From an uncultured Acidimicrobiia bacterium (lineage in GTDB: Bacteria; Actinomycetota; Acidimicrobiia; Acidimicrobiales; AC-14), in assembly GCA_963836205.1 (NCBI GenBank), contig CAWIIV010000014.1, forward strand, positions 32,001 through 96,000: a DNA stretch of 64,000 bases, given 5' to 3'. The notes under the pieces are model-generated. The model did not search any database. It was not told the DNA's origin and saw nothing but the letters and a program-made list of their open reading frames with translations. This document shows positions 23,763-29,639 of this stretch, piece after piece. The first letter of the stretch is position 1, and every line of letters begins with the position of its first letter. The translations under genes and the position numbers were made by a program.

Positions 23763-25489
23763 GGCCACACCGACCCGGTGTACTGCGTTACTTACCACCC
23801 CGACGGTGCCCACGCCCTCAGCGGCGGCCACGACCGCACGGTGCGGGTGTGGGACCTGGCCACCGGGGTCTGCGAGCGGGTCCTCGAAGGACACACCGGC
23901 TCGGTGAACAGCGTCGCCTACCACCCCGACGGCGCCCACGCCCTCAGCGGCGACATCGACGGCAAGGTGCGGGTGTGGGACCTGGCCACCGGGGCCGGCG
24001 AGCGGGTCCTCGAAGGCCACACCGGCTCGGTGCTCAGCGTCGCCTACCACCCCGACGGCGCCCACGCCCTCACGCGACATCGACGGCAAGGTGCGGGTGT
24101 GGGACCTGGCCACCGGGGTCTGCGAGCGGGTCCTCGAAGGCCACACCGGCCCGGTGAACAGCGTCGCCTGCCACCCCGACGGCGTCCACGCCCTCAGCGG
24201 CGACATCGACGGCACGGTGCGGGTGTGGGACCTGGCCAGCGGGGCCTGCGAGCGGGTCCTCGAAGGACACACCGGCTCGGTGAACAGCGTCGCCTACCAC
24301 CCCGACGGCGCCCACGCCCTCAGCGGCGACATCGACGGCAAGGTGCGGGTGTGGGACCTGGCCACCGGGGCCGGCGAGCGGGTCCTCGAAGGCCACACCG
24401 GCTCGGTGCTCAGCGTCGCCTACCACCCCGACGGCGGCCACGCCCTCAGCGGCGGCCACGACCGCACAGTGAGGGTCTGGGACCTGGCCAGCGGGGCCTG
24501 CGAGCGGGTCCTCGAAGGACACACCGGCCCGGTGGACAGCGTCGCCTACCACCCCGACGGTGCCCACGCCCTCAGCGGCGGCGTCGACCGCACGGTGCGG
24601 GTGTGGAACCTGGCCAGCGGCGCCTGCGAAGGGGTCCTCGAAGGACACACCGACATGGTTTTCTGCGTCGGCTACCACCCCGACGGCGGCCACGCCCTCA
24701 GCGGCGGCGGCGACCGCACGGTGAGGGTGTGGGACCTGGCCAGCGGCGCCTGTGAGCGGGTCCTCGAAGGCCACACCGGCTCGGTGCTCAGCGTCGCCTA
24801 CCACCCCGACGGTGCCCACGCCCTCAGCGGCGGCGACGATCGCACGGTGCGGGTGTGGAACCTGGCCAGCGGCGCCTGTGAGCGGGTCCTCGAAGGACAC
24901 GCCGGCTCGGTGCTCAGCGTCGCCTACCACCCCGACGGCGCACACGCCCTCAGCGGCGGCGTCGACCGCACGGTGCGGGTGTGGAACCTGGCCAGCGGCG
25001 CCTGCGAAGGGGTCCTCGAAGGACACACCGACATGGTTTTCTGCGTCGGCTACCACCCCGACGGCGGCCACGCCCTCAGCGGCGGCGGCGACAACACGGT
25101 GCGGGTGTGGGACCTGGCCAGCGGCGCCTGTGAGCGGGTCCTCGAAGGACACGCCGGCTCGGTGCTCAGCGTCGCCTACCACCCCGACGGCGCCCACGCC
25201 CTCAGCGGCGGCGTCGACCGCACGGTGCGGGTGTGGGACCTGGCGAGCGGCGCCTGTGAGCGGATCCTCGAAGGACACACCGAGTCGGTGCACAACGTCG
25301 CCTATCACCCCGACGGCGCCCGCGCCCTCAGTGGCGGCTCCGACGAAACGGTGCGGGTGTGGGACATGACTGCCGGCGCCTGCGAGCGGGTGCTCGAAGG
25401 CCACAGCGGATGGGTGCACAGCATCGCCTACCACCCAGACGGCAGCACGGTTCTCTCGGCGGCCGGCAATGGCGTTCTGCGGATCTGGC
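23763..25489 (+). repeat. 14 x 126-bp highly similar WD40 coding repeats
   Basis: Repeating ctcgaaggacacaccggc...caccccgacggc...gtgcgggtgtgggacctggcc. Confidence 0.95.
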
Positions 25490-26841
25490 CGGCTGAGCTG
25501 ATCGCTAGCTTCCAGGGCCCCTCGACCAAGTTCGTGACCTACTCAAACGCCAAGGTAGTGCTGGTCGGCGAGAGCCAGGCCGGCAAGAGCGGCCTGGCCA
25601 TGAGGCTGGCCCACGATCGCTGGGAGCACTCGGAGTCCACGGTCGGAGCGTGGGCAACCTGGCTCCCGGTGCGTTCCCCCGCCGGGCCGGGCAATCAGGA
25701 TCTGGATCGGGAGATCTGGTTGTGGGACTTCGGTGGACAGGCTGATCAGCGGCTCATCCACCAGCTGTACCTGGGGGACGCCGCGCTCGCCGTGCTCGTC
25801 TTCGACGGCCAACGCGACGACGTCGTGGCCCGCCTGTGGGACTGGAACCGTGCACTTGCGTCGAGCGGACGCGACTATCCCCGGATCCTCGTGGCGGCCC
25901 GTACCGACATCAACCCGGTGAGGCTGAGCACCGACGAGCTCGAAGAGTTTCGGGACGCAGCCGGCTTCGGCGCCTATGTGGAGACCAGCGCAAAGGACGA
26001 CGTCGGCTGCCACGAGCTTCGGGACGTTGTCCTCGCCGCTATCGACTGGTCGAGGGTCCCGTGGCGGTCGTCGCCCCAAACATTCCGGAGGCTCAAGCAG
26101 GAGATCCTCGCCCTGCGCGACAGCGGACGGGTCCTCACATCGGTCAAGGTCCTGCGCGACTGGCTGGCGGGGCGGGTCGACGACCTCCGGCCCGAGGAGC
26201 TCGACGCCGTAATCGGGCTGCTAGCCGGGCCGGGCGCAGTCATGCCGCTCGACTTCGGCGACTACGTCCTGCTCCAGCCCGAGCTGCTCAACGCCTACGC
26301 CCAGGCCGTCATCCGCAGCTTCCGCGACGACCCCCAGGAGCGGGGCTGCATCCTGGAGGAGCGGGTTCTGGCCGGTGACCTCGCCTATCCGAGCGACTTC
26401 GTCCGTCTGCCGCAGGCGGACGAAGCAATCGTGCTGCGGGCCATGCACAAGCAGCTCGTCGAACGTGCGATCTGTTTGAGGGACCAGGACCCGAAGGGGA
26501 AGCGGCCGACCACGCTCGTGTTCCCCAGCTATTTCCGCCGGGAGCGACCCGACCGTCCCACCCAGCCGATTGCTTTCATGACCTACAGCTTCGACGGATA
26601 CCTCGACGAGGTCTACGCCACGCTCGTCGTCAGGCTCCACCACACCGAGCCCTTCACCAGCGCCGAGTTGTGGCGCAACGCCGCCGACTTCACGACCCTC
26701 GGAGGGAACGAGATCGGGATACGCCTGGTGGCGAAGTCGGACGGTACGGGTGCGCTGATACACCTCCGACAGGGTCCCCCACTCGCTTGAGCAGGGGTCC
26801 CAGCGTGGAGTCGGCAACCCCGACCTCACAGGAGGATTCCG

Positions 26842-28245
26842 ATGGCCCACGTTGGAGGACAGCTTCAAGCGCAGTTCATGGCCCGTATCCGCGGGCGTGA
26901 CCCCGAGCGTTGCCTGGTGGTGCCCGTCGACGTCGGCAAGTCGTCGGCGATGGCGCTCGTCGCCGACCACTACGGCGAGATGGTCGTGGCGCCCTTCGAG
27001 TTCGTCCTCACCGAGACCGGGTTCGCGGTGCTGTCGGGAGCGATCGCCCGGGCCGAGGCGACGCGCTCGGCCGAGGTCGTGCGGGTCGGGGTGGAATCGG
27101 CCGGGCACTACCACCGCACGCTCGTGGCCCGCCTGCGGGCCGGCGGCCACGAGGTCGTCGAGCTCAACCCGGCGGCGGTGAAGGAGGCCCGGTCCCAGCA
27201 GCTGCTGCGCCGCCTCAAGAGCGACGCCCGGGACCTGGGGGCGATGGCCGAGCTGATGATCCGTGGCGCCGGCCGCCCCCCGGCGGTGCGCACCGACGCC
27301 CTGGCCACCCAGGGCGCATGGGTCGCCCACCGCCGGCGCAAGGTGTCGGCCCGGGTGGCGCTGGCCAACCAGGTCATCGGCCAGCTCGACCTGGTCTTCC
27401 CCGGCCTCGACGGCTGCTTCTCCGACCTGCTCGGCGCCCGCGCCGGGCGGGTGATCGTCACCCACATCTGCGACCCCGACCGCGTCCGGCGCCAGGGGAT
27501 CGAGGGCCTGCGTCGCTTCGTGGCCCGACGAGGCGTGACGCTGTCGGGGCCCAAGGCCACCCAGGTTGTCGAGGCGGCCCGGGTGGCGCTGCGCCTGCCA
27601 GCCGCAGAGCGGGCCGTCCTGGGCAGGGTCTTAGCCGCTGACCTGGCTCTTCTCGCCAGCCTCGAGGCCGGGATCGTCGCCGCCGAGGTGTCCCTGGCCG
27701 AGGTCCTGGCGGACACCCCGGCGCGGATACTGACCTCCCTGCCCGGGGTGGCGGTGGTGCGGGCCTCGAACTACGGCGCCGGCATCGGCGACCCGGCCCG
27801 GTTCCCGAACGCGGCCGCCGCCTACCGGGCGGCGGGCCTGGTCCCGACGCTGTACGAGTCGGCCGGGAAATCCCGGTCCCGCCAGCACATCAGCCGGGAA
27901 GGCTCCGTCGAGCTGCGCCAGGCGATCATCGAGCTCGGCCGGGGCCTGGCCCAGCACGAGGCCGACTTCCGCCACTACCGCCGCCGGATCCTCGACTCGG
28001 GCAAGCCGGCCTCGGTGGCGGCCGTCGCCGTCGGCCATCGGGCCCACCGCCTGGCCTTCGCCATGCTGCGCGACCAGTTGCCCTACGACCCGGCCCGATG
28101 GACCGAGTCGGTGGCGGCGGGCATGACCGCCATGGCGAAGACCCGACGGGCCCACCAGAACGACGTGACGTGCCCGCCGCCGGCCACCAGCGTGCCCGAA
28201 GGGGGTGAGGCCGACAACACCACCGCCAGACGCTCTCGGGGCTGA
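26842..28245 (+). CDS. IS110 DEDD recombinase/transposase
   Basis: VDVGK, VESAG, KSDARD (DEDD); SLPGVA and GLVP..YESAG..ISREGS Tnp domain; GGAGG RBS. Confidence 0.95.
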   Translation: MAHVGGQLQAQFMARIRGRDPERCLVVPVDVGKSSAMALVADHYGEMVVAPFEFVLTETGFAVLSGAIARAEATRSAEVVRVGVESAGHYHRTLVARLRAGGHEVVELNPAAVKEARSQQLLRRLKSDARDLGAMAELMIRGAGRPPAVRTDALATQGAWVAHRRRKVSARVALANQVIGQLDLVFPGLDGCFSDLLGARAGRVIVTHICDPDRVRRQGIEGLRRFVARRGVTLSGPKATQVVEAARVALRLPAAERAVLGRVLAADLALLASLEAGIVAAEVSLAEVLADTPARILTSLPGVAVVRASNYGAGIGDPARFPNAAAAYRAAGLVPTLYESAGKSRSRQHISREGSVELRQAIIELGRGLAQHEADFRHYRRRILDSGKPASVAAVAVGHRAHRLAFAMLRDQLPYDPARWTESVAAGMTAMAKTRRAHQNDVTCPPPATSVPEGGEADNTTARRSRG

Positions 28246-28257
28246 AACGCCCCGAGA

Positions 28258-28428
28258 TCGGCGGCGGGGGGCCCGGACCGATGTCGAGTGCGCTACGACG
28301 TCCTTCGGGAACGTCGCTTCTAGCATGACGCCGGGTCCCTCCCACTGAAGCGAGCGCGAACGTGGTTGCCTGACCCGCCCTCGGGCGAGGTCGCGTATGT
28401 CAGCGTGTGCCGCGAGGGAGGCCGCCGA
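28258..28428 (+). ncRNA. Putative bridge RNA in the IS110 3' end
   Basis: Closing stem tcggcggc/gccgccga; target loop gtgcgcta-[cUUCGg hairpin]-tctagc; donor loop ggttgc-[hairpin]-tcagc; guides match target and donor junctions. Confidence 0.8.
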
Positions 28429-28501
28429 ACCGGAAATCACCCCGAACCGGATCGACGCGCCCCTCGACGGACGCCTACTTCACCGCGGCTCCACAAGACT
28501 G

Positions 28502-28522
28502 TTGACAAACCAGACGGTTGCT
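28502..28522 (+). promoter_or_regulatory. -35 half of the IS circle-junction promoter
   Basis: TTGACA at 28502; after circularisation it is followed by exactly 17 nt and then TACACC (26759-26764). Confidence 0.75.
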
Positions 28523-29639
28523 AGATCTCCACTGCGACCCCTCGACCCGCGGGGCTACCAGGTGCTCTTCGCCAAGTACGTCCAGGACCACCTCGACGGC
28601 AACGCCAGACGCGTGGCGCGCCTGCGTACCTACATCTGCCCCACCTGTGGTACGCCGGTCGAGAACCGGGCGACGGCGCTCAAGCGCCTACTCGACAACA
28701 AGCCTGACATCGCTTGCCAGGATTGCGAGGCCCGCATTCCGCTGTGGGACGAGATCGAGCAGCTGCTCGCGAGCGACGACCTGCGGTCACAAGTCGCCGC
28801 CCTGCGGGCCGGGTCGAGCAGCGTCCTGGACAACGAGAGCCGCGGGCGAATGCTCGTCGGCGACGTCTACTCGACCGTCGCCCGAGCGGGGCAGATCGCC
28901 CGCGAGGTCACCATCGGCGACCACGGCATCGATGTCGAGGTCGAGTTCAAGACCGACCTCGGCCAGGCCAGCGGGAGAAAGGTCTACTTACAGCTCAAGT
29001 CGGGCGACTCTCACCTCCGGGATCGTGAGCGCGACGAACACTCGCGTTTTCCGGATCCACAAACCCCGCCACGCCGACTACTGGGCTGACCAGGCATTCC
29101 CCGTGATGCTCCTCATCGGCGACAGGTCTGGCACCATCGAGTGGATGGAGATCCGCGAGCTCCTGCGCCGACAGCGGGAAACCGGTGCTTGGCCAGCAAA
29201 AGAGATCGCCTTCGTCGGCACGCGCTTCGACGTGATGAGCGTCCGCCGGTGGCGCGACGAAGCGCTCCGAACCCCATGAAACTGCCCCACATGGATGCCG
29301 GAGCTCTCCAGGCGACCCTGACGTAGGGACCGCACAGGTGCCGATGTCGGATTGGCCCGTCCGATGCCTGACCCGTCCGGCATTCGTTACAGAGTGGGTC
29401 GCCTACCGGGGACCGATTCAACATTCCGGATCCTGACGAGGGCCCGGTTCGTGGCCCCCGGTTGGTATCGCTCGGTGGGCGACGTTCCGATCGGCTACAC
29501 CGGCAGTCCCGCCGGACCACGGCACCTTGTCGTCGCCTGAGCTGATCCATCCACCCGACCGGGACAATCGATCATGCCCCCCTGCCCAGGGGATTCTCAA
29601 GCAGAGATCTGCGAGAGCTCCTCGGCTCGCGGCGGGGCC

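What the first reader, a model, noticed from the sequence alone, without database searches (positions are those of the whole stretch)
28258..28428. Readable bridge-RNA-like guide in the 3' end of an IS110 element, matching its own target and donor
Seen: removing the IS gives target ...acgggtgcgCTagatctc and donor (circle junction) ...cagacggttgCTgatacac. The 3' non-coding end folds within a closing stem (tcggcggc 28258 / gccgccga 28421) into two internal loops. Loop 1 is closed by ggggcccgg/ccgggtccc. It carries gtgcgcta (28288-28295, identical to the target top strand through the core), a cUUCGg hairpin (28296-28316), then tctagc (28319-28324, reverse complement of target gCTaga). Loop 2 carries ggttgc (28364-28369, donor left), a hairpin gacccgccc-tc-gggcgaggtc, then tcagc (28400-28404, reverse complement of donor gCTga). 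Known: this is the LTG/RTG + LDG/RDG geometry of IS110 bridge RNAs such as IS621, which also uses a CT core. Inference: an RNA-programmable recombinase from a high-GC actinobacterium.
Basis: partly seen in the sequence, partly recalled or inferred. Interest (0 to 1): 0.93.

Follow-up and report, generated by a model that had tools for sequence, protein, structure and literature searches.

The report
Bridge RNA in IS110 element's tail
This is a real mobile element whose own small RNA spells out both the site it inserts into and its own ends, but it belongs to the bridge-RNA class described in 2024, so it is a well-supported new example rather than a new kind of system.

Summary
Window 26757-28522 is a 1766-bp IS110-family element with a CT core and a 467-aa DEDD/Tnp recombinase. 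Its 3' non-coding end (about 28258-28428) folds into two internal loops.

On this one sequence the guide matches are only weakly better than chance. The comparative evidence is strong:
- Three copies in the genome all sit at CGCT|AGA, a word with only 36 free sites in 4.05 Mb.
- A covariance model finds the same RNA just after the recombinase gene in 66 of 91 related sources.
- 33 of 45 base pairs show compensatory changes.
- Over 48 flank-distinct insertions, loop-1 guides track their own flanks (0 of 10,000 permutations reach the observed score).
- Loop-2 guides track the element ends.
- The IS621 hallmarks are present: bottom-strand guide 5' of top-strand guide, a 9-nt right donor guide on 7 donor bases, and handshake nucleotides that follow the non-cognate DNA.

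Differences from IS621 are the location 3' of the gene, a closing helix, and a longer recombinase. It also lacks IS1111 traits: no subterminal inverted repeats, and the opposite guide order.

RNA expression, protein binding and reprogramming are untested. Verdict: new member of a known kind, of moderate interest.

The parts
26750..26756 (+). Left target: gtgcg plus core CT (26755-26756)
   Evidence: Identical to the left target guide at 28288-28294. It is contiguous with the right flank in the empty-site homologue.
26757..28522 (+). IS110-family insertion sequence, 1766 bp
   Evidence: Three copies in the genome; the other two differ from the window copy by one base. The empty site is colinear.
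26757..26763 (+). Right donor half (gatacac) at the left end. After circularisation it would supply the -10-like tacacc.
   Evidence: Conserved in relatives. It pairs with the right donor guide, with a 2-nt bulge in the RNA. The junction hexamer was computed.
26842..28245 (+). Recombinase gene, 467 aa. Putative catalytic residues D30, E85, D128, D131, S340.
   Evidence: PF01548 and PF02371. NF033542 at 145.6 bits against a cut-off of 140. IS621 chain 8wt6_A at E 5e-10, with residues aligned. The residues are invariant in A2.
28234..28257 (+). 9-bp hairpin with the stop codon in its loop, directly 5' of the bridge RNA
   Evidence: Read from the sequence. Similar hairpins are visible in some relatives. 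Not tested for covariation.
28258..28428 (+). Bridge RNA (covariance-model match 28252-28434)
   Evidence: Model R1 scores 185.6 bits. The structure is 96% paired in A1 and 94.5% in A3, and 33 of 45 pairs show compensatory change.
28260..28265 (+). Closing helix P1, 5' strand (pairs with 28420-28426)
   Evidence: All 6 pairs show two-sided changes in A3.
28267..28276 (+). Helix P2, 5' strand, closing the target arm (pairs with 28331-28340). The inner helix is 28282-28285 with 28327-28330.
   Evidence: All 10 pairs show two-sided changes in A3.
28288..28295 (+). Left target guide (gtgcgCTa). It is identical to the target top strand through the core, so it would pair with the bottom strand.
   Evidence: It covaries with left flanks.
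28296..28316 (+). Hairpin inside the target-binding loop, with a UUCG loop
   Evidence: 7 of 9 pairs show two-sided changes.
28319..28323 (+). Right target guide (tctag), complementary to the top strand CTaga
   Evidence: It matches all three copies' right flanks. It covaries with right flanks.
28324..28325 (+). Handshake nucleotides of the target loop (ca), complementary to donor positions -2,-1 (tg)
   Evidence: Where donor and target differ at -1, this nucleotide follows the donor in 19 of 20 insertions and the target in 0. At -2 it follows the donor in 30 of 37 and the target in 7.
28350..28357 (+). Helix closing the donor arm, 5' strand (pairs with 28407-28413)
   Evidence: 4 of 7 pairs show two-sided changes.
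28364..28369 (+). Left donor guide (ggttgc), identical to the right end up to the first core base
   Evidence: It changes with the right end across six end types.
28371..28393 (+). Hairpin inside the donor-binding loop
28395..28403 (+). Right donor guide (gta-tg-tcag): nine nucleotides against seven donor bases CTgatac, with a 2-nt bulge
   Evidence: The same 9-on-7 pattern is stated for IS621 in PMC11208160.
28404..28405 (+). Handshake nucleotides of the donor loop (cg), complementary to target positions -2,-1 (cg)
   Evidence: Where donor and target differ at -1, this nucleotide follows the target in 15 of 20 insertions and the donor in 1. At -2 it follows the target in 13 of 37 and the donor in 0.
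28502..28507 (+). TTGACA -35-like box, 15 nt from the right end. It would be half of a circle-junction promoter.
   Evidence: A TTGAC box sits at a nearly fixed distance from the end in most relatives. A 17-nt spacer reaches tacacc of the left end. Function is inferred.
28514..28522 (+). Left donor half (acggttg) plus core CT at the right end
28523..28525 (+). Right target (aga), shared by all three copies

Best explanation
Window 26757-28522 is an intact IS110-family insertion sequence. Its 3' untranslated tail encodes an IS621-type bridge RNA on the same strand as the recombinase gene.

Proposed anatomy:
- The RNA has a closing helix and two arms, each with an internal loop.
- Loop 1 binds the target. 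[quoted passage not shown] - Loop 2 binds the element's own joined ends in the same way (28364-28369 and 28395-28403).
- Two nucleotides 3' of each top-strand guide are handshake guides. They match the other DNA and would favour strand exchange.

Proposed cycle:
- The DEDD/Ser recombinase (D30, E85, D128, D131, S340) loaded with this RNA would recombine the circularised element with CGCT|AGA-type sites at the CT core.
- Transcription is most likely from a junction promoter formed on the circle (TTGACA in the right end, 17 nt, tacacc in the left end). It would run through the gene into the RNA, which is then processed or used as a 3' tail.

Shown here: anatomy, conservation, structural covariation, guide-to-DNA covariation, and site specificity of three copies.
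Inferred: that the RNA is made, that it binds the protein, and that it directs recombination.
For: 1. Protein. PF01548 at 8.9e-24 and PF02371 at 4.1e-14. NF033542 'IS110 family RNA-guided transposase' at 145.6 bits against a cut-off of 140. IS621 chain 8wt6_A at E 5e-10, with the catalytic Ser region aligned.

2. Activity and specificity.
- There are 3 copies; the other two differ from the window copy by one base.
- All 3 sit at CGCT|AGA. That word has 36 unoccupied sites in 4.05 Mb, against 761 for the reversed control.

3. RNA conservation. Model R1 gives 68 matches in 66 of 91 sources, including 55 of 80 metagenome loci. All matches except a decayed remnant are on the recombinase strand. 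For the 61 hits whose right end could be placed, the RNA ends 82-102 nt before the element's end.

4. Structure.
- A1: 96% of cells paired. 13 pairs show two-sided changes against 6.3 in shuffles (0 of 500 reach it) and 0-3 in slid controls.
- A3 (55 distinct rows): 94.5% paired. 33 of 45 pairs show two-sided changes against 18.1 (0 of 500) and 7-10 slid.
- By my tally of the pair-type column, about 36 of 354 cells in A1 are G-U. These would be mismatches on the other strand.

5. Target guides. On 48 flank-distinct insertions the own longest matches average 6.7 nt (left) and 6.1 nt (right). Other elements of the same end type average 4.5 and 4.7. The total is 617 against 469 +/- 13 when permuted, reached in 0 of 10,000 permutations.

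6. Donor guides and core. The donor guides change with six different end types. The core agrees among left flank, right end and both top-strand guides in 46 of 49 insertions. A TT-core subgroup switches all of them together.

7. IS621 hallmarks. The 9-on-7 right donor guide and the handshake pattern are both present. They are described for IS621 in PMC11208160 and PMC11208158 (passages read).
Against: - No RNA evidence: no RNA run holds the sequence, and there is no Rfam match.
- The consensus scan finds no promoter or terminator in the integrated element. The junction -10 (tacacc) matches TATAAT at only 3 of 6 positions and lacks the final T.
- On this sequence alone the matches are not significant, and neither is the fold energy (z -0.97).
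- Insertions and elements are related, and some are probably orthologous. L013 and L041 are one locus counted twice. Counts therefore overstate independence.
- Element ends in relatives were set by motif rules I chose per end type, not by empty sites. Only the window copy has an empty-site check.
- The A3 alignment is fitted to the model, which favours its structure.
- The left donor guide carries C where the second core base T would need A.
- The donor-loop handshake fits only 13 of 37 insertions at position -2.
- The window copy has K343 where the other copies and the relatives have R, three residues after S340. Its effect is unknown.
Confidence: 0.9

Rival explanations
1. It is an IS1111-group element with a seekRNA of the ISEc11/ISPa11/ISKpn4 type, not an IS621-type bridge RNA that happens to lie at the 3' end.
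For: - The long non-coding region and the RNA lie downstream of the gene. This is typical of IS1111 (PMC11208160; PMC11187229; PMC12288879).
- Durrant et al. state that RNA location closely predicts the phylogenetic split between the two groups.
Against: - There are no subterminal inverted repeats: the best inverted match between the two 45-nt ends is 5 of 6 bases. IS1111 has 7-17 bp.
- The recombinase is 467 aa, against 330-350 aa for IS1111.
- The bottom-strand match lies 5' of the top-strand match. That is the IS110 order; IS1111 seekRNAs have the reverse.
- The loops are simple internal loops, with the 9-on-7 right donor guide of IS621.
- Among the rows shown from two plasmid searches (40 of 115 records and 60 of 108), no IS4321, IS5075 or IS1111 label appears. 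The named relatives are ISBth13 and ISSgr1.
- No tree with reference transposases was built, so clade membership is untested.
Confidence: 0.06
2. The conserved 3' structure is a regulatory or stabilising mRNA element (3' UTR structure, attenuator or processing signal). Its resemblance to target and donor is coincidental, or a by-product of the ends being conserved.
For: - The single-sequence statistics are weak.
- There is no expression or binding data.
- A hairpin over the stop codon (28234-28257) suggests some translational or processing role nearby.
Against: - Loop-1 strands are the most variable part of an otherwise conserved RNA, and they follow each element's own flanks.
- Loop-2 strands follow the ends across six end types.
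- The handshake nucleotides follow the non-cognate DNA.
- A regulatory element would not need any of these relations.
Confidence: 0.03
3. The RNA-guided system is real in the family, but this particular window copy is no longer active. It would be a fossil copy carrying K343 next to the catalytic serine.
For: - K343 is unique to the window copy. The two other copies and the relatives in A2 have R.
- The interrupted host gene has also acquired a 1-nt frameshift just downstream of the insertion. That suggests the insertion is not very recent.
Against: - The copy differs from the other two by that single base only. It keeps an open 467-aa frame, all five catalytic residues and intact ends and guides.
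- K and R are both basic.
- The RNA and the ends could also be used in trans by the other copies' protein.
Confidence: 0.1

Closest known systems
IS621 bridge RNA and recombinase (IS110 group; Durrant et al. 2024, PMC11208160; Hiraizumi et al. 2024, PMC11208158)
   Same: - The recombinase has the DEDD RuvC-like domain plus the Tnp domain with a catalytic Ser.
- The core is CT.
- The target loop comes first and the donor loop second.
- The 5' strand of each loop pairs with the bottom strand and the 3' strand pairs with the top strand, both through the core.
- A nine-nucleotide right donor guide lies on seven donor bases.
- Handshake nucleotides match the non-cognate DNA.
- The right end carries a -35 box, as expected for a circle-junction promoter.
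   Different: - The RNA lies 3' of the gene in the right end, not in the left end directly behind the junction promoter.
- The two arms are enclosed by a covarying closing helix.
- The recombinase has 467 aa. The IS621 chain in the PDB has 328 residues.
- Sequence similarity is confined mostly to the C-terminal domain (E 5e-10).
- The host is a high-GC actinobacterium.
IS1111-group seekRNAs (ISEc11, ISPa11, ISKpn4; Siddiquee et al. 2024, PMC11187229)
   Same: - The guide RNA is encoded downstream of the transposase gene.
- Two short segments match the two strands of the target around the insertion point.
- A circle-junction promoter is reported for that group.
   Different: - The order of top-strand and bottom-strand matches is reversed here.
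- There are no 7-17 bp subterminal inverted repeats here.
- The transposase is more than 100 aa longer here.
ISEc21 (IS110 family; inserts in a conserved site of IS3-family transposase genes, PMC11187229)
   Same: - The guide order is bottom strand, then top strand.
- One subgroup of the present family (ends ACAGCT|CATAGT) likewise inserts in a conserved site of another transposase gene. The target is a Mutator/IS256-type gene, at about Pfam profile position 208-213.
   Different: - ISEc21 has its RNA upstream of the gene.
- It targets a different transposase family.

Membership tests
IS110-family bridge recombinase | N-terminal DEDD RuvC-like domain (PF01548) followed by the Transposase_20 domain (PF02371) | tested here: met
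   E 8.9e-24 and 4.1e-14, both above the curated cut-offs. NF033542 at 145.6 bits against a cut-off of 140.
IS110-family bridge recombinase | Catalytic D, E, D, D and Ser residues (IS621 D11, E60, D102, D105, S241) | tested here: met
   D30, E85, D128, D131 and S340 are invariant in A2. They align to the IS621 chain. Mapping of chain numbering to the published residue numbers is my own count.
IS621-type bridge RNA | Structured non-coding RNA in a non-coding end, with two internal loops supported by covariation | tested here: met
   33 of 45 pairs show two-sided changes, and 0 of 500 shuffles reach that number.
IS621-type bridge RNA | [quoted passage not shown] Both covary with the flanks. | tested here: met
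   total 617 against 469 +/- 13 when permuted, reached in 0 of 10,000 permutations. The definition was read in PMC11208160.
IS621-type bridge RNA | Second loop pairs in the same way with the joined right and left ends (the donor) | tested here: met
   the left and right donor guides change with six end types. The second core base is not matched by the left donor guide.
IS621-type bridge RNA | Right donor guide of nine nucleotides pairing discontiguously with seven donor bases | tested here: met
   (gta-tg-tcag against CTgatac, with the same layout in the other end types). The statement for IS621 was read.
IS621-type bridge RNA | Handshake guides complementary to the non-cognate DNA at positions -1 and -2 | tested here: met
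   At -1 (20 informative insertions): the target loop follows the donor in 19 and the target in 0; the donor loop follows the target in 15 and the donor in 1. At -2 the pattern is weaker for the donor loop (13 of 37). The definition was read.
IS621-type bridge RNA | RNA encoded in the left end, upstream of the recombinase gene and directly behind the junction promoter | tested here: not met
   The RNA lies at 28258-28428, after the stop codon at 28243-28245. The left non-coding end is only 85 nt.
IS621-type bridge RNA | The RNA is expressed, binds the recombinase and is required for recombination | not testable with these tools
   No RNA run holds the sequence.
IS1111 group / seekRNA | Long non-coding region and guide RNA downstream of the transposase gene | tested here: met
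   The 3' non-coding end is 277 nt and the 5' end is 85 nt.
IS1111 group / seekRNA | Subterminal inverted repeats of 7-17 bp | tested here: not met
   The best inverted match between the first and last 45 nt is 5 of 6 bases.
IS1111 group / seekRNA | The segment complementary to the top strand lies 5' of the segment complementary to the bottom strand | tested here: not met
   Here the bottom-strand-pairing segment (28288-28295) is 5' of the top-strand-pairing one (28319-28323). The definition was read.
IS1111 group / seekRNA | Transposase of about 330-350 aa that clusters with IS1111 | tested here: inconclusive
   The length is 467 aa, outside the range given. No reference tree was built.

The most novel reading that the evidence does not exclude
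These elements form a distinct, mainly actinobacterial clade in which a complete IS621-type bridge RNA sits in the 3' tail of the recombinase mRNA.
- The RNA has the same guide order, the 9-on-7 right donor guide and the handshake guides.
- If so, the RNA has moved between element ends more than once in the family, independently of the IS1111 lineage.
- The recombinase could then be loaded with a guide carried on, or cut from, the very transcript that encodes it.
- The clade also shows natural reprogramming of every guide, including a concerted CT-to-TT core switch.
- It has members in cultivable Streptomyces, which would give a GC-adapted programmable recombinase.
Probability: 0.45. Interest if true: 0.5.

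Novelty: new member of a known kind. Interest (0 to 1): 0.35.

Why it matters
It adds a well-documented natural series to the bridge-recombinase class.
- There are 51 distinct target-guide pairs, six donor end types and a core switch, all in one alignable RNA scaffold from high-GC Actinomycetota.
- The series shows by comparison alone that the IS621 rules hold in a distant, longer recombinase. Those rules are dual-strand guides, a discontiguous right donor guide and handshake nucleotides.
- They hold even though the RNA lies at the other end of the element.
- That bears on how RNA position and promoter logic evolved in IS110/IS1111.
- It also offers GC-adapted candidates, including a Streptomyces plasmid copy, for genome engineering in actinobacteria.

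It does not open a new class of mechanism.

Tried and rejected
- Rfam: no family matched above E about 1. All 7 weak rows are chance-level, and none covers the RNA itself (one, sR40, ends at 28262).
- Single-sequence folding and the shuffle test of guide matches: not significant on their own. I do not use them as support.
- Promoter/terminator scan of the integrated element: 0 sites.
- Sequencing runs: no RNA holder listed. Holders carry only small shares (0.19 or less).
- Model R1 against sampled genomes: 1 of 150 other genomes of the order matched, and 2 of 150 of the phylum. One of those two, G310, is an unpublished genome, and only this count rests on it. The first-look filter scored only 17 candidates per genome, so these are lower bounds and I draw no distribution claim from them.
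- The order-level hit L023 (42.7 bits) has no recombinase next to it. It was left as an aside.
- Placement relative to the IS1111 group was attempted through two plasmid protein searches. Only generic 'IS110 family' labels plus ISBth13 and ISSgr1 were seen among the rows shown. No tree was built, because no labelled IS1111 reference protein was available to me from a tool.
- Subterminal inverted repeats: rejected.
- Opposite-strand RNA: rejected. All model hits lie on the gene strand, and by my tally about 36 of 354 paired cells in A1 are G-U.
- Supplements of the papers (ISfinder-wide tables of RNA location, covariance models) are closed. They may already list this clade.

Full report
**What is there**

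Window 26757-28522 is a 1766-bp element bounded by a CT dinucleotide on each side, at 26755-26756 and at 28521-28522. It carries one long gene, 26842-28245, of 467 aa.
- The protein has the DEDD_Tnp_IS110 and Transposase_20 domains.
- It passes NCBIfam NF033542 'IS110 family RNA-guided transposase', 145.6 bits against a cut-off of 140.
- In the PDB it matches the IS621 and ISCro4 transposases, at E 5e-10 and 1.5e-9, mainly over the C-terminal domain.
- D30, E85, D128, D131 and S340 align with the IS621 catalytic residues and are invariant in four relatives.
- The left non-coding end is 85 nt and the right one is 277 nt.

**Boundaries and activity**

The genome holds three copies. The other two differ from the window copy by a single base, which makes K343 in the window copy and R343 in the others.
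- Their flanks are gtgcgCT|agatc, gggcgCT|agacg and gaacgCT|agacc. All three therefore share CGCT|AGA.
- That 7-mer has only 36 unoccupied occurrences in the 4.05-Mb assembly, against 761 for the reversed control word. Insertion is therefore site-specific.
- A 78%-identical uninterrupted homologue of the disrupted gene, in another genus of the same family, is colinear with left flank plus right flank to the base (L107 1487-1500). The element is a simple insertion with one CT shared between target and element.

The stems appear in the minimum-free-energy fold.

On this sequence alone the case is weak:
- The fold z-score is -0.97.
- In 5000 dinucleotide shuffles of the 3' end, 544 give an equal or larger sum of matches to target and donor. 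131 give both target matches as long.

**Relatives**

A protein-pattern scan found 10 relatives in MAG contigs, mostly Acidimicrobiales/Acidimicrobiia. A scan of metagenome contigs with an alignment found 80 more.
- The 3' ends align well.
- The stems and the second loop are conserved, while both strands of the first loop vary.
- A covariance model built from 8 sequences (R1) gives 68 matches in 66 of 91 sources searched, including 55 of 80 metagenome loci.
- 67 of the 68 matches are on the gene strand.
- 65 of the 68 lie just after the recombinase gene, and the 61 whose right end could be placed end 82-102 nt before it.
- The three exceptions are the decayed remnant in L003 and two partial hits that lie before the gene (L017:804-972 and L048:172-285).
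- A Streptomyces plasmid copy also carries the RNA, at 62 bits.

**Structure**

The consensus has a closing helix, a target arm and a donor arm.
- The target arm has two helices, an internal loop and an inner hairpin.
- The donor arm has a helix, an internal loop and an inner hairpin.
- In the 8-sequence MAFFT alignment, 96% of cells pair. 13 pairs show two-sided changes, against 6.3 in shuffles (0 of 500 reach it) and 0-3 in slid controls.
- In the 55 distinct rows of the model-fitted alignment, 94.5% of cells pair. 33 of 45 pairs show two-sided changes, against 18.1 +/- 2.0 (0 of 500) and 7-10 in slid controls.
- That alignment leans towards the model, and the sequences are kin.
- Frequent G-U pairs and the strand of all hits put the RNA on the gene strand.

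**Target guides**

I set element ends in relatives by end motifs that do not involve loop 1: a TTGAC box plus an end word on the right, and an end word on the left. I then compared the loop-1 strands with the flanks.
- 55 of 67 same-strand hits had both flanks, and 48 of those were flank-distinct.
- One pair, L013 and L041, is the same locus counted twice. Some others are probably orthologous.
- Own longest matches average 6.7 nt for the 5' strand and 6.1 nt for the 3' strand. With flanks of other elements of the same end type they average 4.5 and 4.7.
- The total is 617, against 469 +/- 13 in within-group permutations. None of 10,000 permutations reaches it.

**Donor guides and core**

Six end types occur:
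- GGTTGCT|GATACAC
- GGTTGTT|GATACAC
- GTTACT|GATACCACC
- ACAGCT|CATAGT
- GACTTCT|GGTAC
- CGCGCT|GATACAA

In each type the 5' strand of loop 2 repeats the right end up to the first core base. The 3' strand is complementary to the core plus the left end, with two unpaired RNA bases in the middle. Durrant et al. describe exactly this for IS621: nine RNA nucleotides on seven donor bases.

The core agrees among left flank, right end and both top-strand guides in 46 of 49 insertions. In the TT-core subgroup the corresponding base changes in all four guides.

**Handshake**

Hiraizumi et al. show that the two nucleotides next to the core-pairing part of each top-strand guide match the other DNA, and must not match their own. 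The same holds here.
- At position -1, 20 insertions have donor and target different. The target-loop nucleotide follows the donor in 19 and the target in 0. The donor-loop nucleotide follows the target in 15 and the donor in 1.
- At position -2, 37 insertions are informative. The target loop follows the donor in 30 and the target in 7. The donor loop follows the target in 13 and the donor in 0.
In the window copy target and donor both have G at -1, so the two readings cannot be told apart there.

**Which subgroup**

The literature places bridge RNAs upstream of the gene in the IS110 group and downstream in the IS1111 group, with some exceptions noted. This element has the downstream location but none of the other IS1111 traits I could test.
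- There are no subterminal inverted repeats.
- The protein is more than 100 aa longer than the 330-350 aa range.
- The IS110 order holds: bottom-strand match first, then top-strand match.
- The IS621-specific details above are also present.
- I could not build a tree with labelled references, so clade membership stays open.

**Expression**

- A TTGACA box (28502-28507) lies 15 nt from the right end and is conserved in most relatives.
- On a circle, a 17-nt spacer would reach tacacc in the left end. That is a poor -10.
- No promoter-like or terminator-like site is found inside the integrated element, and no RNA data exist.
- The most likely route is transcription from the junction, or from outside, through the gene into the RNA, followed by processing. 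This is inference.

**Comparison and verdict**

The mechanism proposed is that of IS621, and the family is the IS110 family. The differences are the RNA's position, its closing helix, the protein's length and the host.

The class has been known since 2024. The 2026 preprint read reports 32,190 predicted bridge RNAs from 86 models, and its tables, which I could not see, may include this scaffold.

I therefore rate it a new member of a known kind. It is real and unusually well supported by natural variation, and of moderate interest.

Noticed in passing
window 24091-26756 and 28523-29089: The element interrupts a gene for a WD40-repeat protein (11 repeats) whose continuation carries DUF4365. Compared with the uninterrupted homologue, the window also lacks one base within about 45 nt downstream of the insertion, so the two halves are out of frame.
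   Followed up: partly
own genome C6:607652-607806 and C6:611108-611478 (L003 115-269 and 3571-3941): The C6 copy lies between two fragments of an 86-87% related element in the opposite orientation. One fragment is a right end with only the donor loop. The other is a left end with a frameshifted 5' gene part.
   Followed up: partly
L035, L036, L037, L070: This subgroup has core TT instead of CT. The same base changes together in the left target guide, right target guide, left donor guide, right donor guide, flank and right end.
   Followed up: partly
L072-L080, L090; L104 (Streptomyces sp. NBC_01320 plasmid NZ_CP108391.1): The subgroup with ends ACAGCT|CATAGT carries near-identical target guides. 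In L079 (Pfam) and in L072 and L090 (flank translations) it sits at one conserved site of a Mutator/IS256-type transposase gene, about Pfam profile position 208-213. L104 carries the same guide type, but its flanks were not checked.
   Followed up: partly
L017 738-2500; L017:804-972; L048:172-285: In L017 the left end lies 1.77 kb upstream of the recombinase gene. A weak second match to the target arm only (31 bits) follows that left end. L048 has a similar partial match (39 bits) before its gene. This could be cargo, a nested remnant or a second RNA.
   Followed up: no
L091:3906-4029: This copy has intact ends and gene, but its RNA lacks the whole donor arm.
   Followed up: no
L023 1501-1673 (G019:C225:16082-16254, minus strand): A weak bridge-RNA-like match (42.7 bits) with no recombinase gene beside it. 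By my recognition of the N-terminal sequence it lies downstream of a DisA-like gene.
   Followed up: no
window 28234-28257: A perfect 9-bp hairpin whose 6-nt loop holds the recombinase stop codon, immediately 5' of the RNA's closing helix. It may be a counterpart of the IS621 5' stem-loop or a processing site.
   Followed up: no
window 27869: The window copy has A where the two other copies have G. This gives K343 instead of R343, three residues after the putative catalytic S340. The relatives in A2 have R.
   Followed up: partly
whole genome G000: CGCTAGA occurs 36 times, against 761 for the reversed word. This shows strong avoidance of CTAG-containing words in this genome.
   Followed up: no
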